This document shows, piece after piece, positions 12,262 to 64,000 of a stretch of 64,000 nt of DNA. Under the pieces are notes generated by a model. The model was not told the DNA's origin. It did not search any database and saw nothing but the letters and a program-made list of their open reading frames with translations. The position numbers were made by a program, and so were the translations under genes. The stretch's first letter is position 1. Each line of letters begins with the position of its first letter. The stretch comes from an uncultured Acidobacteriaceae bacterium. GTDB taxonomy: Bacteria > Acidobacteriota > Terriglobia > Terriglobales > Acidobacteriaceae. Location of the stretch: positions 10,593 to 74,592 of the forward strand of contig CAVULU010000008.1 in assembly GCA_963742455.1 (NCBI GenBank). The letters run 5' to 3'.

Positions 12262-12612
12262 GGCGGGGCGAACCAGCCTGGGAACCCCTTGGTACCGCAT
12301 GGAAACAGAACAGTTGCGCCCATCATGCTATCCAGATGCATCGGGGGTAGGAAGCAAACCGGGGCCAGCGACTCTTCCTTGATTTTCTGGGTACGATCGG
12401 TGCTTCTATCGCGCATATGGACAGCGGAATGGGTGCGGCTAACGATAAAATAGTTATGCCCTACAACGTTGGTAATGGAGATCTTGTCGGAGGCGGTCTC
12501 ATCCGTAATTGGTTGGGCTAGACTCATTTTGAACCCAATGGCCTACTCCAACCACAATTATCCGGTAGCACTTGTGCCGGAAGCCGTTTTCGCCGCAACA
12601 CCCGGAGAACAG

Positions 12613-21865: not shown

Positions 21866-24313
<2,448 letters not shown>

Positions 24314-43389: not shown

Positions 43390-43511
43390 TGGAAGCGTTC
43401 AATTCTTCGGGCCGATGAAAACAACTTGAATTCCGATAGAACCGCACTCCGGTCCGAGCGCGTCTACTATACACACATCCGGTTCGGTCGGGCCGGAACA
43501 GGAGCCCTTTG

Positions 43512-45029: not shown

Positions 45030-45053
45030 CCCACGCATCCCGAGGGTGATTGG

Positions 45054-50138: not shown

Positions 50139-51764
50139 GTGGTCAAGCGGCTGGGCGCGGAGTTTGCAGGTTTTGTGCTGGCCGGCTTTCTAGCCTTTAC
50201 AGCAACCGCCCACGCAGCGTGCAACGGCCCTGCCGCACTGGTTGCGCAGCTCAAGACTCATCCGACCACCGAGAACGCTGTCCTGCTGGGCAGCTGGTAT
50301 GCCAGTCACAAGCAATTAGATTGCGCGGTCACAACCTTCCATGCGGCCATGAACGCCGATCCCAATTCGGCGCAACTGCATTACCTCACTGGCCTTGCTT
50401 ATGTCGATGGCGGCCAGACCAGTGACGCACTCTCTGAACTGCAGAAAGCCGTGCAACTCGATCCCCATGTCCTTAAGCCGCATCTCTTGCTGGCGTACGT
50501 TCTTGATCGAACAGGCAAGCGCCAAGAAGCGGAAGAACAGTGGCGCCAGGCAATCGCCATCGATCCAAAGTCTACTATCGCCCTCGAAGGCCTCAGCCAG
50601 GATCTGCTCGATCGCAATGCCTTCATCGACGTAGTAGTCCTGTTACGGAACGTTCCCCGTACTGAAAAGCTCTCCATCGATCTTGCCCGAGCTTTTGGAA
50701 ATCTGAATATGCTCGACGAGGCCCGCGACGTGCTGACCGAGGCGCTGAACGCTCATCCTTCTTCCCTGCCCCTTTCGAGCGCACTCATCGTTGTCCTGGT
50801 GAAGCAGGTTCGTTTTCAGGATGCGATCAACCTCGCGCAGCACATTGCCGATTCCAATCCGAACAATGTGGATGCGGTGGTGCAGTTGTTTCGCATTCTG
50901 GTTCTCACCAACCACATCAACGCTGCGCGGCCTATCGGCCCCAGGCTTCTTGCGCAGCGCCCTCACGATCCTGAAGTTCTCTATCTCAACGGGATCGTTC
51001 TTCGTGCGGTTGGAGACTATCCTGGAGCAAAGACGCTACTGGAGCAATCGGTTGCCGCAGATCCGAATTCTCCCAACTCGCACTACGAACTCGGGATGGT
51101 GCTGGTCTTCCTTAAGGATTGGGCTCCAGCGCGGCAGGAACTTGAGAAGTCCATCGCCATGGGCGCCAAAGAGCCGCAGGCGCACTACCAGCTGGCTCTT
51201 GCCCTGCGTGGACTTGGTGAGACCGAGCAAGCTCAGAAAGAATTCAAGAATTACCAGGATCAGAAGGCAAGCGATGAGTCAAAGCTTGAAGCGTCGATGA
51301 AGGCGTCGCAGGCTGACGACGATCTGAAAAATGACAAGCTGCAGGATGCAATCGGCCATTACAAGGAGGCTGTTGCAGCCGAACCCGATAACGCCAATTT
51401 CAAATACAAGCTGGCCCTCGCTCTTCATCAGGCAGGCGATGCAGACGGTGAGCGTGCACAGCTTGAGCAAGCAGTCCAGTTGAATCCCGACCTCGCGGGC
51501 GCGCAGAATGAACTCGGCTACCTGCTGTCGCGCAGCGGAGATTCGGCCGGCGCCATTCAGCACTTCCAATCAGCCGTGCATGCTGCACCCGGCTACGTCG
51601 ATGCATGGATCAATCTCTCCGCCGAATTTGCGATGGCGGGAAAGTTCCCGGAAGCGCGCGACGCGATCGCGATGGCGTTACGCCTGGAGCCGGAGAACGA
51701 GCAGGCTCAGAAGCTGAACGACCGCCTTTCTCGCGATGCCGCCGCGCAGCAATCCCATCCGTGA
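50139..51764 (+). CDS. Secreted TPR protein with N-terminal C-x33-C motif
   Basis: Signal peptide ..TAHA-A; more than 10 TPR-like repeats (LYLNG, HYELG, HYQLA, NELG). GTG 50139 after GGAG; ORF is open from 50031. Confidence 0.85.
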   Translation: MVKRLGAEFAGFVLAGFLAFTATAHAACNGPAALVAQLKTHPTTENAVLLGSWYASHKQLDCAVTTFHAAMNADPNSAQLHYLTGLAYVDGGQTSDALSELQKAVQLDPHVLKPHLLLAYVLDRTGKRQEAEEQWRQAIAIDPKSTIALEGLSQDLLDRNAFIDVVVLLRNVPRTEKLSIDLARAFGNLNMLDEARDVLTEALNAHPSSLPLSSALIVVLVKQVRFQDAINLAQHIADSNPNNVDAVVQLFRILVLTNHINAARPIGPRLLAQRPHDPEVLYLNGIVLRAVGDYPGAKTLLEQSVAADPNSPNSHYELGMVLVFLKDWAPARQELEKSIAMGAKEPQAHYQLALALRGLGETEQAQKEFKNYQDQKASDESKLEASMKASQADDDLKNDKLQDAIGHYKEAVAAEPDNANFKYKLALALHQAGDADGERAQLEQAVQLNPDLAGAQNELGYLLSRSGDSAGAIQHFQSAVHAAPGYVDAWINLSAEFAMAGKFPEARDAIAMALRLEPENEQAQKLNDRLSRDAAAQQSHP

Positions 51765-51825
51765 TCCAACTCGCAAGTGATTGGCGGTTGCACCGCGACA
51801 ATGTGAGAATGAAGAAGCTCAAAGG

Positions 51826-53595
51826 ATGAAAAGAATCTTCCCCACTTCTGGCTGGAGCCGGCGAAAACTGTTGCAGACTGCTCCCGCACTTTGTGCTTCG
51901 GCGCTTCTTCCCACGAGGCTTGGTGCTGCTGCACAGGCGGATCATCCGACCGCCGCAGTCAAACCGTTTTCGACATTCACAGACGTGGCGGCGACAGCGG
52001 GCCTGACGGCCACGATGTATTACGGCGTCCCCGAGGCTGTGACCTACATCATCGAAGAGATGGGGGGCGGTTGCGCCTTTTTTGATTACGACAACGATGG
52101 GTGGATGGATATTTTCATTCTCGGCGGACGAACCCTCGATGCTGTCCCTGCCGATGCTTCGAACCGGCTTTACAAAAACAATCGCAACGGTACGTTCAAA
52201 GACGTCACCAAGGAAGCTGGACTGTGGGATGCCGGCTGGGCTGTCGGTGTCTGCGTAGGCGACTACAACAACGACGGCTTCGAAGACCTGTTTCTTACCT
52301 ACTATGGCCAGAACAAGCTCTATCGCAATAACGGCAACGGCACCTTTACCGATGTCACGGAGAAGGCACACCTGACGCACGATGGCATTCGCTTTGGCGC
52401 AGGTTGCACCTTCATCGACTACAACTGCGATGGACTGCTGGACTTGTTCGTGTCGAATTATGTCGATATCGATATGGCGAATGCGCTCAAGCCGTCACTC
52501 AACATTCCCAACTGCAATTACGAGGGCGTGCCGGTGGCATGCGGACCGAAAGGACTGAAGGCGCCGCAGCACTATCTCTACAAGAATAACGGCGACGGCA
52601 CATTTACCGATGTTTCAAAAGAATCGGGCATCGCAGCGATCAAGGGCTCCTACGGGCTCACCGCAGTTTCGTTCGACATCGATGAGGATGGGTGGCCAGA
52701 TCTCTTTGTAGCCTGCGATACCACGCAGAGTCTTCTGCTGCTGAACAATCACGACGGCACTTTTCGCGAAGAAGGCCTGATGCGCGGCGTCGCGATCAGC
52801 CCCGATGGCCAGGAAATGGCCGGTATGGGCATCGGCGTCGGCGACTACGATCTGGATGGGCACCTGGACATCGTCAAAACCCATTTCCAACTCCAGGCAG
52901 CCGGACTGTACCGCAACGACGGCAAGGGCAACTTTGACGATGTGGCGCAACAGGCCGGTTTAGCAGGAGAGAGAACTTACGTAAGCTGGGGAACTTGCCT
53001 TCTCGACCTCGATAATGACGGCTACCCGGACATCTTCTGGGTGACGGGAAACGTTTACGCGGAAGTGGAGAAAATCAACCCTAAATTCCCCTATAAAGGG
53101 CCCCGCGTATTGTTCCGCAATCGGGGGAACGGAACGTTTGCCAGGATCGGCGACGAAGCCGGGTCGGCGATCAGCGCCCGGCACGTCAGTCGAGGCTGCG
53201 CTTTTGGGGATTTCGATAACGATGGCGATATCGACATCGTGATCATGAATCAGCACGAGCCCCCGTCGCTGCTCCGTAACGACGCTCCCAAGGAGAATCA
53301 TTGGATCAAGGTTCGGCTGGAAGGAACGAAGAGCAATCGAAGCGCCATTGGCGCACGTGTTCTTGTTCACTATGGAGGCAAGACACAGGCCCAGGCCGTC
53401 CTAAGCCAGGCAAGCTACATGTCTGGGAATGATCCCCGCCTTCATTTTGGTCTGGGAAAGGAAACGACGGCCGACATTGAAGTGGTATGGCCCCGGGGAA
53501 CCATCGAGAAATACCCTGCCCAGGCCGCAGACCACCTGATCACCATCCTTGAAGGTCACGGAATTGTGCCAGGCCGGCCTTTCCGGTCAGGCTAA
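51826..53595 (+). CDS. CRTAC1-family protein (7 FG-GAP Ca-binding repeats + ASPIC/UnbV), Tat signal
   Basis: SRRKLL twin-Arg; seven DxDxDG-type loops; NRSAIGARV..QAV..SY.SGND.RLHFGLG..WP C-terminus. Confidence 0.88.
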   Translation: MKRIFPTSGWSRRKLLQTAPALCASALLPTRLGAAAQADHPTAAVKPFSTFTDVAATAGLTATMYYGVPEAVTYIIEEMGGGCAFFDYDNDGWMDIFILGGRTLDAVPADASNRLYKNNRNGTFKDVTKEAGLWDAGWAVGVCVGDYNNDGFEDLFLTYYGQNKLYRNNGNGTFTDVTEKAHLTHDGIRFGAGCTFIDYNCDGLLDLFVSNYVDIDMANALKPSLNIPNCNYEGVPVACGPKGLKAPQHYLYKNNGDGTFTDVSKESGIAAIKGSYGLTAVSFDIDEDGWPDLFVACDTTQSLLLLNNHDGTFREEGLMRGVAISPDGQEMAGMGIGVGDYDLDGHLDIVKTHFQLQAAGLYRNDGKGNFDDVAQQAGLAGERTYVSWGTCLLDLDNDGYPDIFWVTGNVYAEVEKINPKFPYKGPRVLFRNRGNGTFARIGDEAGSAISARHVSRGCAFGDFDNDGDIDIVIMNQHEPPSLLRNDAPKENHWIKVRLEGTKSNRSAIGARVLVHYGGKTQAQAVLSQASYMSGNDPRLHFGLGKETTADIEVVWPRGTIEKYPAQAADHLITILEGHGIVPGRPFRSG

Positions 53596-53804
53596 ATGGG
53601 TATTTTGGGTCACATCCAAGGTTGGGAATATCACGTATAAATGAGTGGGTAGTTTCCAACTATTTCTTGTTCAATTTCGAGCCGACTGCCAAAAATCGAG
53701 CCTGGTGACAATTTAATGACCATCGGCCGGAACAGGCCAACCGGGTAAATCTCGAGAAATCTGAGTGATATGGGAAACCGTTTTACTTCAGGGTTCAGCG
53801 CCTA

Positions 53805-53816
53805 AAAAGCGCTTGC
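53805..53816. promoter_or_regulatory. LacI-type palindrome core (AAGCGCTT) upstream of the TBDR
   Basis: AAAAGCGCTTGC; a second degenerate site AAACCGTTT lies near 53775. Confidence 0.3.
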
Positions 53817-53955
53817 CCGTGGTATGCCGGTTGTGATATCGATACTCGATTCACTTAGATGAGTTTCTGATGATGGCTAACTCCGGCGCGTCGGGGTCAG
53901 TTGTGCGTCAGGGATTAAAAAACAAGAACAACAAACGCTTCAGGAGGCTTGGTAA

Positions 53956-56900
53956 ATGTTTACAAACCAAAGAAAGACATCGAGCGGTTCATCGATGTCG
54001 AAATGGTTTAGGCGAATCCCATGGCTGGTCATTCCAGTCATGCTTTTGTCCTTTTCCATCGCAAATGCACAACAGCTGACCGCGACGTTGAGTGGCATAG
54101 CCACCGACCAGACGGAAGCCCGCGTACCAGGGGCCAAAGTTGTTGTATCCAACGAGGCAACGGGCGACGTTCGTGAAACCAAGGCCGATAACCAGGGATT
54201 CTTCTCGGTAACGGCTCTGATTCCCGGCACGTACAAGGTCACGATCACCGCAAAGAGCTTCGCCACGTGGGAAGAGACGGGAATCCTGCTCAACCAGGGT
54301 GATACCCGTACCATCCCGAACATTCGCCTCAAGATTGGTTCCGAAGCGACTGCTGTAACGGTCATCTCCGGGGCCGATGCAGAAATTCCTACAGATAACG
54401 CGGAAATCAGCGCCACCCTGAACAACGAGCTCGTTGACTCCGCCACACTGACGGGACGCAACGCGGCCGAAATGATCAAGATGATGCCCGGCGTCACGTT
54501 CAACAACTCCGGCGGTGCAGGCTCGGGGTTCAATGGAACGGTTACGGGCACCAATAACGGACCCGCGGGCAACTTCTCTGCCAACGGTTCACAGCCTTAT
54601 GGTTCAACCGCGGTCATCCTTGATGGCGCAAACCTGATCGATCCGGGTAATGCCGGAACGCAGATTGCCAACATCAACCAGGATATGACCGACAGCGTAA
54701 AATTCCTGTCAGCTTCCTACGGCGCTGAATATGCGAAAGGCCCGGCTGTTCTGCAGGCCTTCTCCAAGAGCGGCGGTCAGAAGTTCCACGGCGAAGGTTA
54801 CATCTACGCCCGTAACTCCGCGGTCGGCTATGCCAACGACTGGTTCAACAAGGCGTCTGGCAATCCACTGCCGGTTCAAAGTTACTACTACTACGGCGGC
54901 AACATCGGCGGTCCGGTGTTCTTTCCACATTTCAACCACAATCGCGACAAGCTGTTCTTTTGGGCCGGCTATGAATATATGAGCCAGCACCCGTATTGCA
55001 ACAGCTGCTACGGTGGTGCTCCAACCGAAATGAACGTTCCGACTCCGGCTCAGTTGAGCGGCGATTTCAGCAACACCGGCGTTCCCCAACAGGTAATTTC
55101 GGCGTGGCCAGGCGCATATGCACTGCCTTGCAACACGGACGACGGATGGCAGGGTTGCAACATTGCTACTTCGCCATGGCAGGGAACCTACACTGGCCTG
55201 AACAGCTACTTCGACCCGGAAGGTCTGCTGCTGACCAAGTTGAACCCAGCTCCTAACCAGACTCCCAACCAGACCAACGGCTGGAACAACTATGGAACGA
55301 TTCCCAGCACACCGCAGAACCGCTGGGAAGTTACGGGCAAGGTCACCTACGCCTTCAACGACAACAACAAGCTGTGGGGCTCTTACACGTATCAGACGGA
55401 AACCGATCAGCATCCACTGTCAGTATGGTGGGCGCCTGAATGGACCATTCCGTATCCCTCTCTACCGGTCGCAAAGGAGACGGCTCACGTTTACCTGGCC
55501 AACTACACCCACGTGTTCAGCGCCACCACGACGAACGAGTTCGTATTCTCGTATGCGGAATTCGTGAACAACGTGTCTCTCAGCAACCTCGCCAACAGCA
55601 GCCGCAAGGCGCTTGGATTCCCTGCGCAGAGCCTGTTCGGAGCTTCCAAGACCGACCAGATTCCGAACTCGACCGGTGGCTGGAGTTCCGGCCTGACCGA
55701 AATCAACGAGTTTGATTTCAACAGCGGCATCTACGGGCCAGGCACCTTTGGCAAAACTGCCAAGGCTCCTGCCATCAGCGACACCTTCACGAAGATCGTC
55801 GGCACTCACTCGATCAAAGCCGGCTTCTACTGGGATACCCAGGAGAACCTGCAGGCCAACGGCAGCGACATCAACGGCAACTACGACTTTGAGACCTGGG
55901 GCTCCACTTCCACCTACAACCTCACAGTCGATCGCTTGATGATGCGTCCACAGAACTATGACCAGTACAACACCGACGTAGTTCCAGACATTACCTGGCA
56001 CCAGTGGTCGCTCTGGGCGCAGGACTCCTGGAAAGCCACACGGAAGCTGACACTCAACATCGGTCTCCGCGCGGATCACGAAGGACAGTGGTACGACAAG
56101 ATCGGTGGAACTCAGGTTTGGGATCCGTCGACGTACGTCAACACGCCGAACCCTCCTGCCGACACCGGCTTGGCCTGGCATGAAATCAATCCCGCGATTC
56201 CAACCTCCGGCTGGAAGAGCAATCTCTTTACCTACAACCCACGCCTCGGCGCTGCGTTTGATGTGTTCGGCACAGGCAAAACCGTGGTTCGTGGAGGTTT
56301 CGGCACCTACCGTTACCAGGTATCCTCGAATGACGCCAGCAAGGCTATGAACGGCCCGCTTGGATCGTTTGATTACAACACCTCGGGAACCGGCGGCCTG
56401 AACGGCTTCTATGGAGCCGCGATTCAGGGCGGCACCATGTGCATCACCATAACCGGTGGCTTGAACGCGAACTGTACCGGGACCAAGTCACTCGCTATCC
56501 CGCAGGGCGTAAACCAGAATGGCACTGCCGGCCTGGTTGCCGACCAGATGGGTGACGACAAGGTGCCTTATGCGAATACCTGGAGCTTCGGAGTTGCGCA
56601 GGCGTTGCCGAGCCATTCCGTCGCCGAGATTTCGTATGTGGGCAGCGCGAGCCGCAACCAGCTCGAGAACGGACAGAACGGCCACATCAACGATGCCAAC
56701 CCAGTTGCGTACGGCGCGACCTTCACGCCGGACCCGAAGACTGGTCTTTACGAGAACCTCTATCCAATTACCGGCACCGGCGCAAACATCAATGACTGGC
56801 GTCAGCTGATCAACTACGGCAGCATCTGGATCCAGTCGCATGGTGGTTACGCAAACTACAACTCCTTGCAGGTTTCAGCACAGAAGCAGTCCGGCAACCT

Positions 56901-57753
56901 GTACATGTTCACCAACTTCACCTTCGGCAAGGTCCTCGGTACCCGCGACGGATCCACGTCAAACGGAAACGGAAACGGTTCGGCGGTCAATCCTTTCAGC
57001 CTGGACTCAAACTATGGGCCGCTCGGATATGACCACACCAAGACCTTCAACCTGTCGCTGAGCTACAAGCTACCCAAGCCCATCCACAACAACTGGGCGC
57101 TGGGCGGGTTGATCAACGGCTGGCAGATATCCAACTACACGACGTACGAAGATGGATCACCCTACCAGTCCAATTCGGCGAACATGAACATGAACTACCA
57201 GCAGTACCACGACCCATCTGGTGCAACTCACAACGTCAATATCTATCTACCGATCCCAGCAACGGCGGTGGGTGGCAACGTGACGACCAACATCAGCTCA
57301 ACGACCTGGTTGGGAACGAACCAGTACGAAACCCAGCAGGCTCAACCTGTACTTGTTTGCGATCCTCGCAAGGGATTGCTGAAGAACCAGTACTTCAACC
57401 CCAACTGCTTTGCAGCACCGCTCCCGCCGACAGCAACGTCGTTTGGACAGAACGGTCAGATCATCTGGCCCTATATCCGCAACCCGCATTACTTCGGCAG
57501 CGATCTGGCAATGTTCAAGGCATTCCGAGTTACGGATTCTCAAAGGGTTGAGTTCCGCGCCTCGGCTACCAACTTCCTTAACCACCCGAACGCACAGTTC
57601 GGATTGGCGGGAACCTCGGACAATAGCCTGCTGTTTAACGGTGTTCCCACCGCTTCAGCTGGGGTTTACAACACCAACTCAAGCACCACTGGTATCCCGC
57701 AGAATAAGGTTGGATATCGCTGGTTGCAATTGGCAGCCAAGTACTACTTCTGA
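53956..57753 (+). CDS. TonB-dependent receptor-like outer-membrane protein with N-terminal carboxypeptidase-regulatory-like domain
   Basis: Signal peptide, VPGAKVVVSN..TG, GFFS...LIPG.Y, SKSGG.KFHG, QDSWKATRKLTLNIGLR, PR.GAA.D, RGGFG, C-terminal QLAAKYYF; GGAGG RBS. Confidence 0.92.
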   Translation: MFTNQRKTSSGSSMSKWFRRIPWLVIPVMLLSFSIANAQQLTATLSGIATDQTEARVPGAKVVVSNEATGDVRETKADNQGFFSVTALIPGTYKVTITAKSFATWEETGILLNQGDTRTIPNIRLKIGSEATAVTVISGADAEIPTDNAEISATLNNELVDSATLTGRNAAEMIKMMPGVTFNNSGGAGSGFNGTVTGTNNGPAGNFSANGSQPYGSTAVILDGANLIDPGNAGTQIANINQDMTDSVKFLSASYGAEYAKGPAVLQAFSKSGGQKFHGEGYIYARNSAVGYANDWFNKASGNPLPVQSYYYYGGNIGGPVFFPHFNHNRDKLFFWAGYEYMSQHPYCNSCYGGAPTEMNVPTPAQLSGDFSNTGVPQQVISAWPGAYALPCNTDDGWQGCNIATSPWQGTYTGLNSYFDPEGLLLTKLNPAPNQTPNQTNGWNNYGTIPSTPQNRWEVTGKVTYAFNDNNKLWGSYTYQTETDQHPLSVWWAPEWTIPYPSLPVAKETAHVYLANYTHVFSATTTNEFVFSYAEFVNNVSLSNLANSSRKALGFPAQSLFGASKTDQIPNSTGGWSSGLTEINEFDFNSGIYGPGTFGKTAKAPAISDTFTKIVGTHSIKAGFYWDTQENLQANGSDINGNYDFETWGSTSTYNLTVDRLMMRPQNYDQYNTDVVPDITWHQWSLWAQDSWKATRKLTLNIGLRADHEGQWYDKIGGTQVWDPSTYVNTPNPPADTGLAWHEINPAIPTSGWKSNLFTYNPRLGAAFDVFGTGKTVVRGGFGTYRYQVSSNDASKAMNGPLGSFDYNTSGTGGLNGFYGAAIQGGTMCITITGGLNANCTGTKSLAIPQGVNQNGTAGLVADQMGDDKVPYANTWSFGVAQALPSHSVAEISYVGSASRNQLENGQNGHINDANPVAYGATFTPDPKTGLYENLYPITGTGANINDWRQLINYGSIWIQSHGGYANYNSLQVSAQKQSGNLYMFTNFTFGKVLGTRDGSTSNGNGNGSAVNPFSLDSNYGPLGYDHTKTFNLSLSYKLPKPIHNNWALGGLINGWQISNYTTYEDGSPYQSNSANMNMNYQQYHDPSGATHNVNIYLPIPATAVGGNVTTNISSTTWLGTNQYETQQAQPVLVCDPRKGLLKNQYFNPNCFAAPLPPTATSFGQNGQIIWPYIRNPHYFGSDLAMFKAFRVTDSQRVEFRASATNFLNHPNAQFGLAGTSDNSLLFNGVPTASAGVYNTNSSTTGIPQNKVGYRWLQLAAKYYF

Positions 57754-57775
57754 TTTAGTTCAGGAGCTTGCACTC

Positions 57776-57810
57776 AGAAGGGGTGGCGAAATGCCACCCC
57801 TTCTCTTTTT
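57776..57810 (+). terminator. Rho-independent terminator after the TBDR
   Basis: AGAAGGGGTGGC-GAAAT-GCCACCCCTTCT followed by CTTTTT. Confidence 0.85.
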
Positions 57811-58170
57811 GCGTCAGAAATTGATCGATCACTTTATCGGCATCAGGACAAGTAATCCTTTCCTCTCTGCTCGCTGGAGAAAGTACTTATGGTGGTGGCT
57901 TTCCAGGATGGCCGCGCGGATCACTTCGCTATCGAATGCGGAACCGCGGGTAGTGGGATGGCTTTCAGTCGCGCCCGGGAAGCAACTATGTGCGCATTGA
58001 GTGGACACTGCCTCGATGCGCTATCTAATCCCTCAAATGCTAATATTGATCGACGTGCGGAACTTTGGCGCGCCGGAAGCGACTTCTATCAAGGGATTTC
58101 CCCGGCGATATCCGTTACGCCAGCTGTTACACGTGACGTCTCGCATTCGATCCGACTACTTTCAAACTCA

Positions 58171-59280
58171 ATGCTTCCCTCTGCAACTTCCAAGGCTCTA
58201 TGGACTCTGGCATTGCTGACGTTACTCGTAGTGTGTCAGAAACGCATACAGGCACAAGAGGGCGCACCCGAGTTTGGAGATTTGATTTCCCGTGCGGCAG
58301 AAGCACGCGATCAGCAGAATCTGTCTCTAGCTATCGAACTTTATAACCAAGCCGTGCAGCTTCGCCCCGACTGGGGGGAAGGCTGGTGGTATCTCGGCCT
58401 GCTCCAGTACAACTCAAATAGGTTCGCACCGGCAATTGAGTCGTTCAATCACCTTCTTGAGTTGCAACCGGGCATGATTCCAGCAAAGGCTCTGCGCGGG
58501 CTGTGCGAGTTCGAGACTGCTGCTTACGACGATTCGCGGCGCGATCTGGAACAGGCCGTAGCCCTTGGAGCAGCCAACGAGCCTCGCAACGGGCAAATTA
58601 TTCGGTATCATCTCGCACAATTGCTGACCAGAGCTGGACGCTTCGAAGATGCGGTGGCCCAATACAGGTTTTTTGCCTCGCTGACGGTAGATGACCCTGA
58701 ATTGCTGGTTGGTCTTGGCGTGGCCGGAATGAGAGTGAATTCCTTGTCTCGGGATGTTCCGTCAAGTGACAAGGCATTCTATGAGGCCGCGGGTAAAGCC
58801 GGATTCGCCTTCATGGCCGGCAACATCGAGGAGTCTGATACGCTATTTGACCGGCTCTTTTTGCAGTATCCGAAGACGGCTAATCTTCATCTGTTCTATG
58901 CCATGCTGGTGAGCGCGAACGCGCCGGACGTGGCGATCGGCCTTCTTCAACGCGAAGTATTGCTGGCCCCAGCGAATAGTTACGCACATGGGGCGCTGGC
59001 AATGATGCTCATGTTGGCGGGCCGTTACGGCGAAGCCGTACCCGAAGGCGAACTGGCTTTGGCCGCAGCTCCAGACTCGCAAATGGTGCAGCTCGCGTTG
59101 GGCCGCTCATTAATCGAAACGGGAAATACAAAACGCGGAAGCGAGTTGCTGAATAAGGTCCTCGAGCGAGATCCGAACAACCTGGAAGCGCATATGGGAC
59201 TGGCCACTGCCTACGTTCGTGAAGGAAGACTCGACGACGCATACCATGAGCGGAGGGTTTGCCTTGGGCTGGCTCGATAG
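58171..59280 (+). CDS. Secreted TPR protein
   Basis: Signal-like N-terminus from ATG 58171 (ORF open from 57889); GWWYLG, RYHLAQ, LALG..L, AHMGLA TPR motifs. Confidence 0.8.
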   Translation: MLPSATSKALWTLALLTLLVVCQKRIQAQEGAPEFGDLISRAAEARDQQNLSLAIELYNQAVQLRPDWGEGWWYLGLLQYNSNRFAPAIESFNHLLELQPGMIPAKALRGLCEFETAAYDDSRRDLEQAVALGAANEPRNGQIIRYHLAQLLTRAGRFEDAVAQYRFFASLTVDDPELLVGLGVAGMRVNSLSRDVPSSDKAFYEAAGKAGFAFMAGNIEESDTLFDRLFLQYPKTANLHLFYAMLVSANAPDVAIGLLQREVLLAPANSYAHGALAMMLMLAGRYGEAVPEGELALAAAPDSQMVQLALGRSLIETGNTKRGSELLNKVLERDPNNLEAHMGLATAYVREGRLDDAYHERRVCLGLAR

Positions 59281-60355
59281 ACGACGGGGTCTCGTCAGGA
59301 CGGGCTGGGCCAGGAATCCGGCGTGGCTGCTGTTGTGGTTCGCGGCGGCACTGCCGGTCACGGCGCAGAATCCGGAGCAAGCGAAAGGTTCGGTTACGTG
59401 CGCTACGTGCCATGCAGCGGTATCGGCATCGTATGCACATGCGCCGATGCGACATGCCATGGAATCTCCGGGGGCAAATCCAGCACTCGAGCGCCATCCA
59501 AAGCTCAGTGTGGAGCTAGGCGGATACACCTACACGGTGTTGACCAAGGACGGCAAGAGCACCTATAGCGTGGCTGACGGAACAGGGTCGTTGACGGTGC
59601 CGATTCGCTGGATGCTCGGGGAGCAGACGCAGACTTGGATCCTGGAGAAGGACGGGCGCCTGTATGAAAGCCTGGTGTCCTTCTTTCCACGCGACCAGGT
59701 GCTTGCCGTAACTCCCGGCGATCAAAAAATAGTGCCGCGCAATCTCACCGAAGCCATGGGTCGGGAACTATCGATCTGGGATGCGCGGCAATGTTTCAAC
59801 TGCCATGCGACGCATGCTATAGAAGGGGTGCGATTGACGCTGGACAAAATTCGTCCGGGATTGGATTGCGAGCGCTGCCACGATGGAGCGCAGCAGCACA
59901 TGGCCGACGCAGCGCGCAGCAACTTCAGCACGTTGCCGAAATCGCTGAACAAGATGGACGCGCAAGAAACATCAACATTCTGCGGGCAGTGCCATCGCAG
60001 TTGGGATACGGTGCTGCGCAACCACTGGCGCGGGCCTGTGTTTGTGCGCTTTCAGCCCTATCGGTTATCGAACAGCAAATGCTTCCAGGTCAATGACCGG
60101 CGCATCAGCTGCCTGGCGTGTCACGACCCGCACCAGCCTGCAAACCATACGGTGTCTTACTATGACGCGAAGTGCCTCACCTGCCACGGAAACGCAAAGC
60201 CCATGAAGGCTGATATGGCGGTGAAGCAATGCCCCGTGAGCAAGACGGATTGCGTGACCTGCCACATGCCCAAGATTGAACAACCGGGCAAACATGCCAG
60301 CTTCACGGATCATGAGATTCGTATCGTGAAGGCAGGCGACGCCTATCCTGATTAG
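59219..60355 (+). CDS. Multiheme c-type cytochrome (7 CxxCH; c554/paired-CXXCH-like)
   Basis: CATCH, CFNCH, CERCH, CGQCH, CLACH, CLTCH, CVTCH; hydrophobic signal LLLWFAAALPVTA-Q. Start may be 59246. Confidence 0.9.
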   Translation: MKEDSTTHTMSGGFALGWLDRRRGLVRTGWARNPAWLLLWFAAALPVTAQNPEQAKGSVTCATCHAAVSASYAHAPMRHAMESPGANPALERHPKLSVELGGYTYTVLTKDGKSTYSVADGTGSLTVPIRWMLGEQTQTWILEKDGRLYESLVSFFPRDQVLAVTPGDQKIVPRNLTEAMGRELSIWDARQCFNCHATHAIEGVRLTLDKIRPGLDCERCHDGAQQHMADAARSNFSTLPKSLNKMDAQETSTFCGQCHRSWDTVLRNHWRGPVFVRFQPYRLSNSKCFQVNDRRISCLACHDPHQPANHTVSYYDAKCLTCHGNAKPMKADMAVKQCPVSKTDCVTCHMPKIEQPGKHASFTDHEIRIVKAGDAYPD

Positions 60356-60416
60356 GATCAGTTTTGGTTGTCGCGGCAGTCTGTATCAATGCGAACGGGA
60401 AAAAGAGAGTCGCAAC

Positions 60417-61532
60417 TCAATTGTCGCGAGATGGCTGCTGCTGTTGTTTAGCCTCAATCTCACGAATCGTATTTCGCTCCCGGTCTCCATCGGCAGACCG
60501 CTTCAGCTTGTAGTAAACATTCGCCAATTCGACGTGAGGTTCTAACCAACCGGGATCGGTCTTCTCCAAATCTTCGAGGATCGCAACGGCTTCAGCCAAG
60601 TGTCCTTTAAGGTCATTCAGCTTGGCAATCTCCAGGCGGGCCAGCGGCCAGTTCGGCCGTAGTTGCAGAGCGAGTTCCAGGAGGGGCCCGGCGTCTTCGA
60701 GATCCCTCTGATTCAACCGTATGGTTCCCAGATAGAGATTTGCCATGAAGTCCTTAGGATCTTCAGCAAGAGCGCCTTCAAAGGCTCGAACAGCCCCGTC
60801 GACATCTCCGCGTCCATAGCGGGCCTGACCCGCCATTGTGTACAGGCCCGGCAGCTTCGGATTCAAATCCACCGCTGCATTCAGATCCTCGAGCGCAATC
60901 TTCATTTCGCCGCGATAAAACCGGGCAGAACCGGCCAGCAGCCACGCCTCGGCGGAGTTCTTCGTCCTGGCCAGTTTTTCCATCCTCGGCAATCCCTGGT
61001 CCGGCTTGCCCGAGGCGATAAGGGCGTAGGCATAAACGTATTCGAATTGATAATCGTCTTCATGTCCCGGCTCCAGCGGCGCAAGAAGTGCCGCCGCCTC
61101 GGCTTGGCGGTCGAGCTTGTTATACGTATACCCAAGCAGAATTGCCGTATTCAAATCGGAAGGATGCGCGGCATGAAGTTTCTCGAACTCAACGCGAGCC
61201 TGATTCCAATTGCCGGTGCGATAGTGGGCCATGGCCAGGTTCATCCGCACCGCGTCATTCTGCGGAGCCAGTTCCAGCACATGGCTGTCCTCTTCAATGG
61301 CAGCGTCCATCTGCCCCGCGGCGGCCAGCGCGGCTCCAAGATTTGCCCGCGCCTCAATCAAATCAGGTTTCAGGGTCAGCGCCCTTTGGAAATCGGCGAT
61401 CGCCGTCTTCAGGTCGCCGTGTTCCTGCGCAAGGGTCCCTTCTCGAAGCGCCGACTCAGCATTCGCCGCGGCGTTCTGACCGGCAGCAGCCTGAACCAGG
61501 AGCCCCGCGCACAGAATCGGAACAATTCGCAT
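60417..61532 (-). CDS. Secreted TPR protein
   Basis: MRIVPILCAGLLVQAAAG signal at ATG 61532; ARANLG, RMNLA, LYTMAGQA, ANLYLG repeats. The ORF-track extension to 62099 is antisense to CRTAC1. Confidence 0.85.
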   Translation of the reverse strand: MRIVPILCAGLLVQAAAGQNAAANAESALREGTLAQEHGDLKTAIADFQRALTLKPDLIEARANLGAALAAAGQMDAAIEEDSHVLELAPQNDAVRMNLAMAHYRTGNWNQARVEFEKLHAAHPSDLNTAILLGYTYNKLDRQAEAAALLAPLEPGHEDDYQFEYVYAYALIASGKPDQGLPRMEKLARTKNSAEAWLLAGSARFYRGEMKIALEDLNAAVDLNPKLPGLYTMAGQARYGRGDVDGAVRAFEGALAEDPKDFMANLYLGTIRLNQRDLEDAGPLLELALQLRPNWPLARLEIAKLNDLKGHLAEAVAILEDLEKTDPGWLEPHVELANVYYKLKRSADGDRERNTIREIEAKQQQQPSRDN

Positions 61533-61631
61533 CGCTCTACAGGATAGAACATCCGTCAGTCGACTCCCTTCCTCCGATTCGCAGATAGTAGAATTCAAGT
61601 GGGGCACCGCTGCTGCCGCCCTTCCTTTTAC

Positions 61632-63332
61632 ATGTGCAGGTCTGGATTCGTCCCCATCCATCTCGCGGCGCTGGCGCTTGTCTCGTGGGCTTTCTGCGGC
61701 GTCCTGCAATGCCAGCAAACAGCGAAGTCCGGCCAGTCCCCCGCCCCGATTCAATTCGATCTCAAGAATCTGCCTTTTCAACTGGACAGTAGCCTCAGCG
61801 CAGCCAAGAACGTCCCGGAAACCATGGCGGGCGGAGTCGCCGTCTTCGACTACAACGGTGATGGCCGTCCCGATATCTTCTTCACCAACGGCGCCGATAT
61901 CGCAACCCTGCAGAAGTCCTCGCCGAAATATTACAACCGTCTCTTCCGCAACAATGGCGACGGCACCTTCACTGACGTGACAGAGCAAGCCGGACTGAGA
62001 GGCACCGGATTCGATGTCGGTGTTGCTATCGGCGACTACGACAACGATGGCCACCCCGACATCTTCGTTGCCGGCGTACACGGCAACACGCTCTATCACA
62101 ACAACGGCGACGGGACCTTCAGCGATGTGACCAAGAAAGCCGGCCTCGACAAGTGGAACGATCCGGAATATGGCCCGCTGTGGGCAGTTGCCGCCGTCTG
62201 GGTCGACGTGAACAACGACGGGCTACTCGACCTGTTCATCGTCAACTATCTGCAGTGGACTTATTCGAATATTCCAAAGTGCGTCATTGAGGGAGTGGCG
62301 GAATACTGTCATCCCCGTTACTACAAGGGACTTCCCGATCAACTCTTTCTCAACCAGGGAGATGGGACTTTCAAGGATGTTTCCAAGGAGTGGGGCATAC
62401 GCGATCACATAGGCAAGGGCATGGGCGTGGGGATGGCGGATTATGATCTCGACGGCAAACCCGATCTCTTCGTGACCAACGATGCAGAGTATGCGTTTCT
62501 TTTTCACAACCTCGGCAACAAATTCGAAGAGGTCGCATTCCAGACCAATGTCGCTCTGGCCGAAGATGCCGCATTCATCTCCGGCATGGGCACCGATTTC
62601 CGCGACATCAACAACGATGGATTCCCCGATATCATCTACGTCGCACTCAAGAGCCAGACGTTTCCCATCTATCTCAACACCGGCAAAGGCGACTTCGCCG
62701 AGGCCACAGCGCCCAGCGGCATGCGTAACCTCAGCCTGGGCATGTCGGGCTTTGGCCCGGCTTTCTACGACTTTGACAACGACGGTTGGAAGGATCTCTT
62801 CGTCACGCGCGGGCAGGTCACTTCAGTCTGGCCACCGGGCTACAAGTTCGCTGAACCCAACGTTGTCTTCCGCAATCTCGGCGCCAGTGGCAAATGGCAG
62901 GCACTCGCCGCTGAGGCAGGATTTACCGACGCTACCGCAGCGCGTCATCGCGGCTGCGCATTCGGCGATTTCGACGGCAACGGCCGCATCGACATTGTTG
63001 CCACCAGCCTCGATAAACCGGCGGAGCTATGGATGAACCGCAGCCCCAACGCCGGCCACTGGCTCGATATTGCTCTGCGCGGCGTCAAATCGAATCGAGA
63101 TGGAATCGGCGCGCGGATCAAAGTCGTAACCAATGCTGGAACGCAGTACAACCACCAGACATCCAGCGTCTGCTATGCATCTTCAACCCTTGGGCCAGTG
63201 CACTTTGGACTCGGCGCGGACACGAAGGCTAAGATTGTTGAAATTCATTGGCCAAGCGGCATTGTTCAAACACTAGAGAATGTTGCGGCGGATCAGATTT
63301 TAAAAGTTACCGAGCCAGCGGCCTCCAAATAG
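61632..63332 (+). CDS. CRTAC1-family protein (7 FG-GAP repeats + ASPIC/UnbV), Sec-type signal
   Basis: PETMAGG; seven DxD/NxDG loops; NRDGIGARI...HFGLG..WPSG..Q C-terminus. Alternative GTG start at 61599. Confidence 0.88.
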   Translation: MCRSGFVPIHLAALALVSWAFCGVLQCQQTAKSGQSPAPIQFDLKNLPFQLDSSLSAAKNVPETMAGGVAVFDYNGDGRPDIFFTNGADIATLQKSSPKYYNRLFRNNGDGTFTDVTEQAGLRGTGFDVGVAIGDYDNDGHPDIFVAGVHGNTLYHNNGDGTFSDVTKKAGLDKWNDPEYGPLWAVAAVWVDVNNDGLLDLFIVNYLQWTYSNIPKCVIEGVAEYCHPRYYKGLPDQLFLNQGDGTFKDVSKEWGIRDHIGKGMGVGMADYDLDGKPDLFVTNDAEYAFLFHNLGNKFEEVAFQTNVALAEDAAFISGMGTDFRDINNDGFPDIIYVALKSQTFPIYLNTGKGDFAEATAPSGMRNLSLGMSGFGPAFYDFDNDGWKDLFVTRGQVTSVWPPGYKFAEPNVVFRNLGASGKWQALAAEAGFTDATAARHRGCAFGDFDGNGRIDIVATSLDKPAELWMNRSPNAGHWLDIALRGVKSNRDGIGARIKVVTNAGTQYNHQTSSVCYASSTLGPVHFGLGADTKAKIVEIHWPSGIVQTLENVAADQILKVTEPAASK

Positions 63333-63335
63333 GAA

Positions 63336-64000
63336 TTACTGCTTCGCCGGGCCGGCCTTCTGCTGCGCGGCCTCAAGCTGCTTCACAATGTCGCGTTCTC
63401 GCTGTCCGTCATCCGGACGATGGAGCTTGTAGTAGATCGGCGCGAGCTCAATGTGAGGATCAAGCCAATTGGGATCAGCCTTCTCCAGTTCTTCCAAGGT
63501 CGCAGCAGCTTCGGCATATTTTCCAGTCATGGCATTCAACTTTGCGATTTCCAGCCGCGCCATGGCCGAATTTGGCTGCAGTTGCAGCGCAAGCTCCAGC
63601 ATCGGTCTTGCGCTATCCATATCCCTCTGCTTAAGCCGCATAGTTCCGAGGTAGAGATTTGCGGTATAGTCCCGCGGGTCCGCCTTCAACGCTTGCTCGA
63701 ATGCAGTCTGTGCGGCATCCGTGTCTCCCAAAGCATCACGCGCTTGACCGGCCATCGTATACAGACCGGGAAAATCTCCGTGCAGATTTATCGCGGCGTC
63801 AAGATCGGCGCGTGCCTCGTGAAATTCCCGGCGCCGCAGCCGCGTCGTTCCCGCTACGAAGTAGGCGTCAGCCGATTGGGTTGCCTTAGCCATCTTCTCC
63901 ATGCGCGCCAAGCCGGATGTCTCTTCCCCGGAATCGATCAATGCATAGGCCAGCACGTACTCGAGGTCCATGTTGCTTTCGTGCCCAGTTTCGAGCGGCG
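63336..64000 (-). CDS. TPR protein, 5'-truncated by the window edge; paralog of 60417-61532
   Basis: PGLYTMAGQAR, ANLYLGT, LELALQL.P, ARLEIAKLN, DP.WL.PH.ELA..YYKL are shared with the 60417-61532 product; the frame is open to the window end. Confidence 0.85.
   Translation of the reverse strand, partial: PLETGHESNMDLEYVLAYALIDSGEETSGLARMEKMAKATQSADAYFVAGTTRLRRREFHEARADLDAAINLHGDFPGLYTMAGQARDALGDTDAAQTAFEQALKADPRDYTANLYLGTMRLKQRDMDSARPMLELALQLQPNSAMARLEIAKLNAMTGKYAEAAATLEELEKADPNWLDPHIELAPIYYKLHRPDDGQRERDIVKQLEAAQQKAGPAKQ

What the first reader, a model, noticed from the sequence alone, without database searches (positions are those of the whole stretch)
50139..64000. Candidate undescribed envelope system: TonB-dependent receptor + 4 TPR proteins + 2 CRTAC1 Ca-propellers + a 7-heme cytochrome c
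Seen: in 14 kb, every gene whose 5' end is visible encodes an exported protein. The order is TPR > CRTAC1 > TBDR > TPR > 7xCxxCH cytochrome > <TPR, CRTAC1 > <TPR. There is no glycoside hydrolase, protease, inner-membrane transporter or regulator. Established: TBDR loci normally carry catabolic enzymes or regulators; FG-GAP DxDxDG loops bind Ca2+; I know of no assigned bacterial function for ASPIC/UnbV domains; CxxCH attaches heme c. Inference: a periplasm-to-surface module that couples TonB-dependent uptake or sensing to redox chemistry, for example oxidation or reduction of a polymer, humic or metal ligand, with TPRs as scaffolds or chaperones for the propellers and cytochrome.
Basis: partly seen in the sequence, partly recalled or inferred. 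Interest (0 to 1): 0.82.

Follow-up and report, generated by a model that had tools for sequence, protein, structure and literature searches.

The report
TonB receptor cluster plus inserted cytochrome cassette
The eight genes are real, but they are two units: a conserved soil-Acidobacteria outer-membrane transporter cluster with calcium-propeller/TPR protein pairs of unknown function, and a separate two-gene cytochrome cassette that was inserted into it here and sits next to such clusters more often than chance predicts.

Summary
Order, strands and domains are as described: TPR1 > CRTAC1-like CRT1 > TonB-dependent receptor > TPR2 > 7xCxxCH cytochrome > <TPR3, CRT2 > <TPR4.

The interpretation as one module is only partly supported. 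The conserved core is TPR1-CRT1-TBDR-(TPR/CRT2)n, which continues beyond the window with an acidobact_VWFA protein. It recurs in every TBDR-ortholog locus examined. TPR2>cytochrome is a separate cassette with overlapping genes and its own conserved leader. The pair is intact in 80/80 cytochrome loci, but most of those lie in unrelated housekeeping contexts. In this window it sits between the TBDR's intrinsic terminator and TPR3. Only the nearest relative shares that arrangement; eight other orthologous loci lack it. In peat metatranscriptome contigs an orthologous TBDR reads roughly 50-200x deeper than every neighbour.

A facultative link to redox proteins still looks real. The cassette adjoins the same cluster at several different junctions in other genera. 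Multiheme-cytochrome-TPR fusion proteins occupy the "TPR partner" slot upstream of CRT1-like genes in other soil contigs. TPR-cytochrome fusions lie next to a TBDR of the same class.

CRT1-type propellers carry a conserved twin-arginine signal. Function remains unknown, and I found no description of the cluster in the literature searched.

The parts
50139..51764 (+). TPR1: exported TPR protein, upstream partner of CRT1 (17-nt gap to the CRT1 ORF)
   Evidence: Pfam TPR families. The start at 50139 matches the 541-aa orthologues. The TPR1>CRT1 pair is conserved in 21 group-B loci and in every TBDR-ortholog locus long enough to show it.
51826..53595 (+). CRT1: Tat-signal CRTAC1-like protein (FG-GAP Ca-loop beta-propeller plus UnbV_ASPIC domain)
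   Evidence: Pfam. PDB sequence hit to CRTAC1 9etn, E 8e-20. Foldseek top hit 9etn, then fungal GlcNAc lectins and integrin alpha (the model is low confidence). Twin-arginine motif WTRRRLL in 15 of 19 orthologues and widespread in CRT1-like metagenome sequences.
53995..57753 (+). TBDRw: TonB-dependent-receptor-class outer-membrane barrel with an N-terminal CarboxypepD_reg domain
   Evidence: Pfam. Orthologues at 64-90% identity. An orthologue in L071 is the dominant transcript of its locus.
57776..57814 (+). Intrinsic terminator of the TBDR gene (13-bp stem, T-run)
   Evidence: The hairpin is conserved in L081, where the next gene is TPR3 rather than TPR2.
58038..58121 (+). Conserved leader of the TPR2-cytochrome cassette. 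A possible hairpin ends at the usual start codon, which is ATA in the window.
   Evidence: blastn and alignment to the region upstream of TPR2 in at least 25 loci. Almost no covariation, so an RNA structure is unproven.
58171..59280 (+). TPR2: exported or membrane-anchored TPR protein, obligate partner of the cytochrome
   Evidence: Pfam. TPR2 lies directly upstream of the cytochrome in 80 of 80 loci by tblastn.
59246..60355 (+). CYT: seven-heme c-type cytochrome with a beta-rich domain between haem motifs 1 and 2. Its start overlaps the end of TPR2.
   Evidence: 7 CxxCH invariant. Pfam Cytochrome_C554, c3 and c7. 2744 homologues. 546 representatives at E<=1e-30. The AF2 beta domain, residues about 75-180, is confident and the rest is not.
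60417..61565 (-). TPR3: exported TPR protein, divergent from CRT2
   Evidence: Pfam. Orthologues follow the TBDR directly in L081, L085, L089 and L090.
61632..63332 (+). CRT2: Sec-signal CRTAC1-like propeller, 40% identical to CRT1
   Evidence: Pfam.. Orthologues lack the RR motif.
63336..64000 (-). TPR4: 3' part of a TPR3 paralogue, convergent with CRT2; the gene continues beyond the window
   Evidence: Pfam. 58% identical to TPR3. In L081, L085 and L090 the orthologue is preceded by a roughly 1010-1060-aa acidobact_VWFA gene.
49175..50032 (-). Zn metallopeptidase (PF04228). A flank, syntenic only in close relatives, and probably not part of the system.
   Evidence: Pfam E 2e-97. Present in L081, L085-87, L090 and L091. 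Absent in L083, L084, L089, L092 and group B.

Best explanation
There are two units.

(A) Core envelope cluster. This is a conserved Acidobacteriaceae cluster. A separately transcribed, very highly expressed CarboxypepD_reg-type TonB-dependent transporter is flanked by pairs of a TPR protein and a CRTAC1-like Ca2+ beta-propeller. CRT1 is exported folded through Tat and CRT2 through Sec. Beyond the window the cluster is completed by an acidobact_VWFA protein and PD40/Tricorn_N-TPR proteins.

Inferred working model for (A): the transporter brings an unknown organic or metal-complexed ligand into the periplasm. The lectin/integrin-like propellers bind or process it there, or they capture it beforehand. 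Each propeller is held by its dedicated TPR adaptor.

(B) Cytochrome cassette. TPR2 and a seven-heme periplasmic cytochrome form a self-contained cassette with overlapping reading frames and its own conserved leader. In this lineage it was inserted between the TBDR terminator and TPR3.

Inferred relation between (A) and (B): the cassette is a facultative redox accessory. Where it is present, it passes electrons to or from whatever the TBDR/propeller module handles, for example reductive release of Fe(III) from an imported organic complex. The TPR protein would act as its docking partner. The core does not need the cassette.

Shown: the gene content, the two-unit architecture, the insertion, the conservation patterns, the Tat motif and the expression asymmetry.
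Inferred: all biochemistry.

My confidence is about 0.85 for the architecture and about 0.35 for the functional link. The figure given is a blend of the two.
For: Architecture:
- TPR2>CYT is found in 80 of 80 loci.
- The terminator after the TBDR is conserved in L081, where TPR3 follows after 130 nt.
- L081, L083, L084, L085-87, L089, L090, L091 and L092 all have TPR1>CRT1>TBDR>[<TPR]CRT2><TPR<VWFA and give no cytochrome hit by tblastn.
- Only L088 (TBDR 90% identical) shares TBDR>TPR2>CYT.
- The cassette carries its own conserved leader.
- Elsewhere the cassette lies beside UvrB/CcmF, arginase, SerB-like, GH2, amylase and MacB genes.
- Expression: the L071 TBDR reads at depth 100-1100, against 0-37 for CRT2, TPR3, TPR2, CYT, TPR1 and CRT1, in 4 peat metatranscriptomes. 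The same direction appears weakly in L080.

Facultative link:
- 23 of 27 loci of the second cytochrome clade hold the same families in at least 5 arrangements with different flanks.
- L028 places the cassette next to the VWFA end of the cluster.
- L096, a soil contig found through CRT1, repeats the group-B order.
- Cytochrome-TPR fusion proteins sit directly upstream of Tat-type CRT1-like genes in L169 and L173. L155 has a 9-haem-TPR protein two genes upstream of its CRT1-like gene, plus a NapC/NirT-type cytochrome on the opposite strand.
- TPR-CYT fusions occur in 4 protein clusters. In L093 a convergent TBDR of the same class follows the fusion gene, and the cut downstream genes in L094 and L095 match TBDRs as well.
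- TBDR-class genes occupy the position next to the cassette 13-16% of the time, against 4.5% farther out.
- The literature reports a CRTAC1-family gene flanked by haem/propeller hydrazine-synthase homologues in non-anammox bacteria (PMC12758564).
Against: - No biochemical or genetic data exist for any component.
- The cluster contains no inner-membrane transporter, regulator or recognisable enzyme.
- The cytochrome is absent from most core clusters, and most cassettes lie far from any CRT. The link is therefore at best optional and could reflect a few ancestral juxtapositions inherited by related genomes. Group B may be one event followed by rearrangements.
- The enrichment of TBDRs next to the cassette rests on 2-4 independent synteny groups.
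- Expression depths come from assembler contig depths, not read counts.
- Both AF2 models are low confidence (pLDDT 55 and 53).
- The subcellular location of the CRT proteins (periplasm or secreted) is unknown.
Confidence: 0.6

Rival explanations
1. All eight genes form one obligate periplasm-to-surface machine that couples TonB-dependent uptake or sensing to multihaem redox chemistry.
For: The same seven families stay together in 23 of 27 group-B loci despite rearrangements. L096 repeats the order. Cytochrome-TPR fusions lie next to CRT genes.
Against: Eight of nine orthologous TBDR loci lack the cytochrome. About 50 of 80 cassettes lie in unrelated contexts. A terminator separates the units. 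Expression differs by 50-200-fold. Only 2 of 80 CRT1-type contigs hold a cytochrome of the window's family or the related CYTb family.
Confidence: 0.12
2. There is no functional link. The cytochrome cassette is an independent periplasmic electron carrier that lies beside the TBDR cluster by chance insertion, and in group B by inherited synteny.
For: The cassette occurs in many housekeeping contexts. It has its own leader and the TBDR has its own terminator. The insertion is confined to the window and L088. Group A and group B are each largely one synteny group.
Against: At least four different junction types join the cassette to components of the same cluster: group B1 and B2, the window, and L028. 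A single insertion has a chance of about 15 kb in roughly 6 Mb of landing in the cluster. Unrelated multihaem-TPR fusions sit upstream of CRT1-like genes. The TPR-CYT fusion is next to a TBDR.
Confidence: 0.28
3. TPR2 is a CcmI/CycH-like dedicated apocytochrome chaperone, and the cytochrome serves general respiration. This would explain the invariable pairing without any tie to CRT or the TBDR.
For: Pfam TPR_CcmH_CycH scores 42.1 bits for TPR2, against a cut-off of 42. In L026, L035-L037 and L041 the cassette lies just upstream of CcmF and the ccm genes. The reading frames overlap, which suggests coupled synthesis.
Against: All four TPR proteins of the window match that model at similar E-values (6e-6 to 1.5e-15), so the hit is generic. 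Stable TPR-cytochrome fusion proteins exist, which fits a permanent partner better than a transient chaperone. TPR2 has one hydrophobic N-terminal segment, not the two-helix CcmI anchor.
Confidence: 0.2
4. The core cluster serves envelope biogenesis or maintenance (analogous to BamA-BamB-BamD or TolB-Pal-CpoB) and not nutrient uptake.
For: It combines an outer-membrane barrel, beta-propellers and TPR proteins. PD40/TolB-like TPR proteins lie nearby. Group B1 is flanked by SurA-like, DsbA-like and LptD genes. No catabolic enzyme or inner-membrane transporter is present.
Against: The barrel belongs to the TBDR class and has a plug-like region and a SusC-type N-terminal domain. The CRT fold is closest to ligand-binding lectins and integrins. 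The flanks differ between subgroups.
Confidence: 0.1

Closest known systems
SusC/SusD-type polysaccharide utilisation loci and TonB-dependent 'CUT' loci
   Same: An outer-membrane TonB-dependent barrel with an N-terminal carboxypeptidase-regulatory-like domain, clustered with exported ligand-binding proteins. The transporter is very highly expressed.
   Different: There is no SusD, glycoside hydrolase, regulator or inner-membrane transporter. The partners are TPR/CRTAC1 pairs and VWFA proteins. The ligand is unknown.
Vertebrate CRTAC1 (ASPIC), structure 9etn
   Same: The same two-domain body: an FG-GAP Ca-loop propeller plus a UnbV_ASPIC domain.
   Different: The bacterial proteins lack the EGF-like tail. 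They carry Tat (CRT1) or Sec (CRT2) signals and are encoded next to TPR and TBDR genes. The function of neither the vertebrate nor the bacterial protein is established, as far as I know.
Porin-multihaem-cytochrome conduits (MtrAB, Geobacter Pcc, the putative Verrucomicrobia PCC; PMC5615132)
   Same: An outer-membrane barrel gene lies next to a periplasmic multihaem cytochrome gene in bacteria from humic, low-oxygen soils.
   Different: The barrel here is a plugged TBDR-class protein with its own terminator and promoter. There is no extracellular cytochrome. There are seven haems rather than 8-10. The adjacency is facultative.
Hydrazine-synthase-like haem/propeller clusters that enclose a 'CRTAC1 family protein' gene (PMC12758564)
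   Same: A CRTAC1-like FG-GAP protein is genomically tied to c554-type multihaem proteins and beta-propellers.
   Different: The cytochrome families and the phyla differ. No TBDR or TPR pairing is reported there. Function is unknown there too.
CcmI/CycH apocytochrome chaperones
   Same: A TPR protein is encoded with, and presumably binds, a c-type cytochrome. Some cassettes adjoin ccm genes.
   Different: The Pfam score is borderline and generic. The membrane anchor differs. Stable fusion proteins exist.

Membership tests
TonB-dependent transporter (TBDR) | C-terminal 22-strand beta-barrel domain | tested here: met
   PF25183 OMP_b-brl_4, E 4.9e-124, residues 270-1215. Strand number was not counted.
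TonB-dependent transporter (TBDR) | N-terminal plug domain | tested here: inconclusive
   PF07715 Plug scores 22.9 bits, below the 23.9 cut-off. It is listed as 'weak' in orthologues.
TonB-dependent transporter (TBDR) | TonB box and energy-dependent uptake | not tested
   No motif scan or experiment was done.
CRTAC1 / ASPIC-UnbV family | FG-GAP/VCBS Ca-loop propeller followed by a UnbV_ASPIC domain | tested here: met
   CRT1: FG-GAP_3 E 1.9e-53 plus UnbV_ASPIC E 8e-18. CRT2: 2.2e-55 and 1e-18. 9etn is the best sequence and fold match.
CRTAC1 / ASPIC-UnbV family | C-terminal EGF-like domain of vertebrate CRTAC1 | tested here: not met
   No EGF family appears among the Pfam hits. The proteins end shortly after the UnbV_ASPIC domain.
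Multihaem c-type cytochrome (c554/c3/c7-like) | Several CxxCH haem-attachment motifs in an exported protein | tested here: met
   Seven CxxCH motifs, all invariant in 57 homologues. Cytochrome_C554 scores 28.2 bits, above the 20.8 cut-off. The N-terminus looks like a signal peptide.
Multihaem c-type cytochrome (c554/c3/c7-like) | Covalent haem and redox activity | not testable with these tools
   This needs haem staining and spectroscopy.
SusC/SusD polysaccharide utilisation locus | A SusD-like lipoprotein gene adjacent to the TBDR, plus CAZymes | tested here: not met
   No SusD or glycoside-hydrolase domain is found in the finding or in the orthologous loci. The one exception is a GH92 gene about 6 kb from the TBDR in the L084 flank.
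Porin-cytochrome conduit (Mtr/Pcc) | An unplugged porin and a periplasmic multihaem cytochrome in one operon, usually with an extracellular cytochrome | tested here: not met
   The barrel is TBDR-class and ends in its own terminator. There is no second cytochrome in the window. The adjacency is absent in 8 of 9 orthologous loci.
Tat substrates (for CRT1) | A conserved twin-arginine motif ahead of a hydrophobic stretch | tested here: met
   SRRKLL in the window. WTRRRLL in 15 of 19 orthologues. [ST]RRxF[LV] in about half of 80 CRT1-like metagenome sequences, many of the rest being N-terminally cut. Actual export was not tested.
CcmI/CycH chaperone (for TPR2) | A specific CcmH/CycH-type TPR domain, a two-helix membrane anchor and ccm context | tested here: inconclusive
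   PF23914 scores 42.1 bits against a cut-off of 42, but the other TPR proteins match that model too (E 6e-6 to 1.5e-15). TPR2 has one hydrophobic segment only. The cassette is next to the ccm genes in 5 of 80 loci.

The most novel reading that the evidence does not exclude
Tat-exported CRTAC1-like propellers would be the working subunits of a previously unrecognised periplasmic redox system of soil bacteria. TPR proteins dock them, sometimes as multihaem-cytochrome fusions. Where present, NapC/NirT-type and seven-haem cytochromes wire them to the quinone pool. They would act on substrates delivered by a dedicated, highly expressed TonB-dependent transporter. This would give the first function for the CRTAC1/ASPIC fold.
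Probability: 0.15. Interest if true: 0.85.

Novelty: new variant of a known kind. Interest (0 to 1): 0.55.

Why it matters
Acidobacteriaceae dominate acidic soils and peat, and their many CarboxypepD_reg-type TonB-dependent receptors have no known substrates. In the peat metatranscriptomes examined, this one is by far the most strongly transcribed gene of its locus.

It sits in a conserved cluster with TPR/CRTAC1 pairs. To my knowledge that protein family has no assigned function in any organism. The cluster is therefore a concrete, testable entry point: cultured carriers exist, such as strain AB60 and possibly Terracidiphilus gabretensis.

The Tat signal on CRT1 and the recurrent cytochrome-TPR fusions narrow the hypotheses towards a cofactor-bearing or redox-linked periplasmic protein.

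The result also shows that the attractive eight-gene "system" in this window is a lineage-specific composite. Experiments should therefore treat the cytochrome cassette and the core cluster as separate variables.

Tried and rejected
- AF2 of the cytochrome with 57 homologues. pLDDT was 55, and only the beta domain (residues about 75-180) was confident. Foldseek against the PDB found nothing below E 0.1. A PDB profile search gave only a marginal NrfA tail match, E 0.025. No fold-based function could be assigned.
- AF2 of CRT1. The 2-sequence run gave pLDDT 53 and pTM 0.59.
- A CRT1-specific cysteine cluster (C83, C143, C194, C297) as a metal site linked to Tat export. C83 and C297 are not conserved in the wider Tat-type family, so I dropped the idea. 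C194, C230 and C239 are universal.
- RNA-seq for the window itself. No run was found; only DNA soil metagenomes hold it.
- Rfam on 49-64 kb. No match at E<=0.1.
- The leader hairpin upstream of TPR2. The sequence is conserved, but only 1 of 14 pairs shows a double change, so structure is not demonstrated.
- NCBIfam. There are no family-level names for CRT, the TBDR or the cytochrome. All TPR hits fall below their cut-offs (PrsT, MamA and others) and are generic.
- Literature searches. No description of a TBDR/TPR/CRTAC1 cluster was found. The only related material is a note that ASPIC/UnbV and TBDR genes form large paralogue families in Solibacter (PMC3174227) and the HZS-like/CRTAC1 neighbourhood (PMC12758564).
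- The Zn peptidase and the AAA+/VWA pair as members of the system. I rejected both because they are syntenic only among close relatives.

Full report
**1. What is in the sequence**

- TPR1: 50139-51764 +.
- CRT1: 51826-53595 +. Six FG-GAP_3 repeats plus UnbV_ASPIC.
- TBDR: 53995-57753 +. CarboxypepD_reg plus OMP_b-brl_4. The Plug hit falls just below its cut-off.
- TPR2: about 58171-59280 +.
- Cytochrome: 59246-60355 +. Seven CxxCH motifs.
- TPR3: 60417-61565 -.
- CRT2: 61632-63332 +.
- TPR4: 63336 to beyond 64000 -. Only the 3' part is in the window.

TPR4 is a 58%-identical paralogue of TPR3, and CRT1 and CRT2 are 40% identical. All seven visible N-termini look like export signals, and CRT1's contains SRRKLL.

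A PF04228 Zn peptidase abuts TPR1 on the other strand. The genes further upstream are unrelated: BKACE, an AAA+/VWA pair, PD40-TPR proteins and glutamine synthetase. NCBIfam has no family-level name for CRT, the TBDR or the cytochrome.

**2. The cytochrome side**

The cytochrome belongs to a large, well-conserved family. It has 2744 homologues, mostly Terracidiphilus and other Acidobacteriaceae. In a 1.84-billion-protein library it has 546 representatives at E<=1e-30, nearly all 340-410 aa long.

I fetched 80 genome loci and searched them with the window's proteins.
- TPR2 lies directly upstream of the cytochrome, usually overlapping it, in 80 of 80 loci.
- ORF clustering and a distance tree split the loci into two groups.
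- In the window's own clade (53 loci, 57-69% identity), only the window has the full CRT/TBDR neighbourhood. L028 has the orthologous TBDR, TPR3 and a VWFA gene next to the cassette. L016 has a distant CRT upstream.
- The other cassettes of that clade lie beside UvrB and the ccm operon, arginase, a SerB-like gene, GH2, an amylase, MacB permeases, or a different TBDR followed by an ion channel, PEPCK and GltB.
- In the second clade (27 loci, about 50% identity, other genera including Acidobacterium sp. and Ca. Sulfotelmatobacter MAGs), 23 loci hold the same families as the window. They occur in at least five arrangements with different flanks. The commonest is TPR3> <CRT2 <TBDR | TPR2> CYT> TPR1> CRT1>.
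- Some of these loci add acidobact_VWFA proteins (TIGR03436) and a second seven-haem cytochrome.

**3. The TBDR/CRT side**

The TBDR has many orthologues at 64-90% identity. I looked at nine further distinct contexts.
- L081, L083, L084 (strain AB60), L085-87, L089, L090, L091 and L092 all show TPR1> CRT1> TBDR> [<TPR3] CRT2> <TPR4 <VWFA, usually followed by a Tricorn_N/PD40-TPR gene. None gives a cytochrome or TPR2 hit by tblastn within 10 kb.
- Only L088, the closest relative (90%), has TBDR> TPR2> CYT> as the window does.
- The TBDR ends in a 13-bp-stem terminator. That hairpin is conserved in L081, where TPR3 follows after 130 nt instead of the 2.6-kb cassette.
- The cassette brings a conserved 80-90-nt leader, also found upstream of TPR2 in at least 25 other loci.

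The most parsimonious reading is a recent insertion of a self-contained cassette into a pre-existing cluster.

**4. How general the core is**

A metagenome scan with a CRT1 alignment returned 80 soil and peat contigs at 45-68% identity.
- A TBDR-class gene is present in 27 of 80 contigs, and in 21 of the 39 contigs of at least 9 kb. It is often immediately downstream of CRT.
- TPR genes are detectable by tblastn in 33 of 80, which is a lower bound.
- The CRT proteins are the most conserved parts. CRT1 is 63-69% and CRT2 67-72% identical between the window and group B. The TBDR is 41-47%, the TPR proteins 39-47% and the cytochrome 47-52%.
- CRT1 orthologues carry WTRRRLL in 15 of 19 cases, and twin-arginine motifs are widespread across the CRT1-like family. 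CRT2 orthologues have Sec-type signals.
- CRT1's best sequence and fold match is murine CRTAC1 (9etn). Next come fungal GlcNAc-binding propeller lectins, integrin alpha and aldos-2-ulose dehydratase. The model is low confidence.

**5. Whether the cytochrome is functionally tied to the cluster**

Evidence against an obligate tie:
- The cytochrome is missing from 8 of 9 orthologous loci.
- Most cassettes lie elsewhere in the genome.
- Only L096 (group-B order) and L155 among the 80 CRT1-type contigs carry a cytochrome of the window's family or the related CYTb family.
- In contigs from four peat metatranscriptomes, the L071 TBDR reads at depth 100-1100, with transcript ends near 4620 and 8517. 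CRT2, TPR3, TPR2, CYT, TPR1 and CRT1 read at 0-37. L080 shows the same direction weakly. Contig depth is a crude measure.

Evidence for a facultative tie:
- (a) The cassette touches the same cluster at several different junctions. It is divergent from the TBDR in group B1. It lies between VWFA genes in B2. It lies after the TBDR in the window and L088, and after the VWFA gene in L028.
- (b) In L169 a 738-aa protein with a five-haem c554-like N-terminus and C-terminal TPRs sits exactly where TPR1 normally sits, directly upstream of a Tat-type CRT1-like gene. L173 is similar, with 3 CxxCH in a cut ORF. L155 has a nine-haem-TPR protein two genes upstream of CRT, and a NapC/NirT-type cytochrome on the opposite strand.
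- (c) A TPR-CYT fusion of 938-977 aa exists in four protein clusters from three data sources. Its TPR part aligns colinearly with TPR1 (E 9e-48) rather than with TPR2. In L093 a convergent TBDR of the same class follows it, and the cut downstream genes in L094 and L095 match TBDRs as well.
- (d) TBDR-class genes are about three times more frequent at the position next to the cassette than farther out, though few independent events underlie this.
- (e) A published neighbourhood links a CRTAC1-family gene to c554-bearing hydrazine-synthase homologues (PMC12758564).

**6. Mechanism**

Shown:
- There are two separately terminated units.
- The TPR+propeller pairing is conserved.
- CRT1 has a Tat signal and CRT2 a Sec signal.
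- The TBDR transcript is very abundant.
- The cassette is an intact pair with overlapping frames.

Inferred:
- The TBDR imports an unknown ligand.
- The lectin/integrin-like Ca2+ propellers bind or process it, held by TPR adaptors.
- Where present, the seven-haem cytochrome with its TPR partner exchanges electrons with that module, for example reductive release of Fe(III) from organic complexes.

I rate the architecture at about 0.85 and the functional link at about 0.35. The rivals are pure coincidence, a CcmI-like chaperone role for TPR2 (the cassette lies beside ccm genes in five loci), and an envelope-biogenesis role for the core. All are listed with their tests.

**7. Comparison with known systems**

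- The cluster works most like a TBDR-centred uptake locus, but it fails the PUL membership tests: there is no SusD and no CAZymes.
- It fails the porin-cytochrome tests: the barrel is a plugged TBDR-class protein, the transcripts are separate, and there is no outer cytochrome.
- The CRT proteins are members of the CRTAC1/ASPIC family apart from the vertebrate EGF tail.

Eight literature searches found no description of this cluster.

**8. Verdict**

The single-module interpretation is partly supported. The locus is a new variant of a known kind: a TBDR locus with an undescribed TPR/CRTAC1/VWFA partner set and an optional cytochrome cassette. Interest is moderate at 0.55. A bolder reading, in which CRTAC1 propellers are redox-wired periplasmic enzymes, is not excluded (p about 0.15).

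Noticed in passing
window 58038-58121; also upstream of TPR2 in L001-L015, L019, L021, L023-L027, L032, L039, L044, L046, L050: A conserved leader of about 80 nt lies immediately upstream of the TPR2 start codon. It begins with an extended -10-like CTGCTAnnAT. A CGCCGG...CCGGCG hairpin then ends at the ATG. In the window that ATG is ATA, so translation must start downstream. Only 1 of 14 pairs shows a compensatory change.
   Followed up: partly
L071 4591-8520 (orthologous TBDR); runs X10-X13: The TBDR orthologue is transcribed at depth 100-1100 in four peat metatranscriptomes. Adaptor-marked transcript ends lie near 8517 (5' end) and 4620 (3' end). A divergent TPR2 transcript starts near 8741, so the divergent promoters lie within about 220 nt.
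   Followed up: partly
L169 1667-3880, L173 1-1809, L155 5643-8354 and 4063-5526 (-): Multihaem cytochrome-TPR fusion proteins (5, at least 3, and 9 CxxCH) lie directly or closely upstream of Tat-type CRT1-like genes. L155 also encodes a NapC/NirT-type (Cytochrom_NNT) five-CxxCH cytochrome on the opposite strand, which hints at a quinol-linked electron path.
   Followed up: partly
P0266, P0391-P0393; loci L093-L095: These are 938-977-aa proteins that fuse a TPR1-like TPR array to the seven-haem cytochrome domain. In L093 a convergent CarboxypepD_reg/OMP_b-brl_4 TBDR follows the fusion gene; the cut downstream genes in L094 and L095 match TBDRs as well.
   Followed up: partly
window 36423-38201 (-) and 40958-43285 (+); L054 6027-8180: Paralogous PD40/TolB-like propeller proteins each carry a single CxxCH, and the second also has TPRs. 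A homologue sits inside the cluster in L054. Tricorn_N/PD40-TPR genes flank the core cluster in L081, L083, L085 and L089-L092.
   Followed up: partly
window 43509-46289 (+): A chelatase/MoxR-like AAA+ protein and a VWA (Rv0959_3rd) protein form a pair. The same pair directly follows TPR2-CYT in L003, L019 (AB60) and L046. It lies upstream of the core cluster in L081, L085-87 and L089-L091.
   Followed up: partly
L065, L072, L076, L078, L080 (family f27, e.g. L065 14180-15445 -): A second, distinct seven-CxxCH cytochrome, with a weak GSU2203/DmsE-like hit, lies between CYT and TPR1 in some group-B loci.
   Followed up: no
beyond the window end; L081 18157-21345 (-), L085 18137-21169 (-), L090 18083-21205 (-): The gene upstream of TPR4 in orthologous loci is a roughly 1010-1060-aa acidobact_VWFA (TIGR03436) protein with no Pfam hit. 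The cluster therefore probably continues past position 64000.
   Followed up: partly
CRT1 residues 83, 143, 194, 297, 458, 230, 239: CRT1 orthologues have invariant cysteines at equivalent positions just before the Ca loops of several blades, and CRT2 lacks four of them. In the wider family only C194, C230 and C239 are universal.
   Followed up: partly
window 1-34000: Unrelated genes by Pfam: Wzi capsule-assembly protein (3309-5159), MacB-type permease (5307-7745 -), SpoIIE-type phosphatase, glutamate dehydrogenase, response regulator with EAL domain (12469-13803), beta-lactamase-family protein, anthranilate synthase I, sulfatase (21866-24313), histidine kinase and an amino-acid permease.
   Followed up: no
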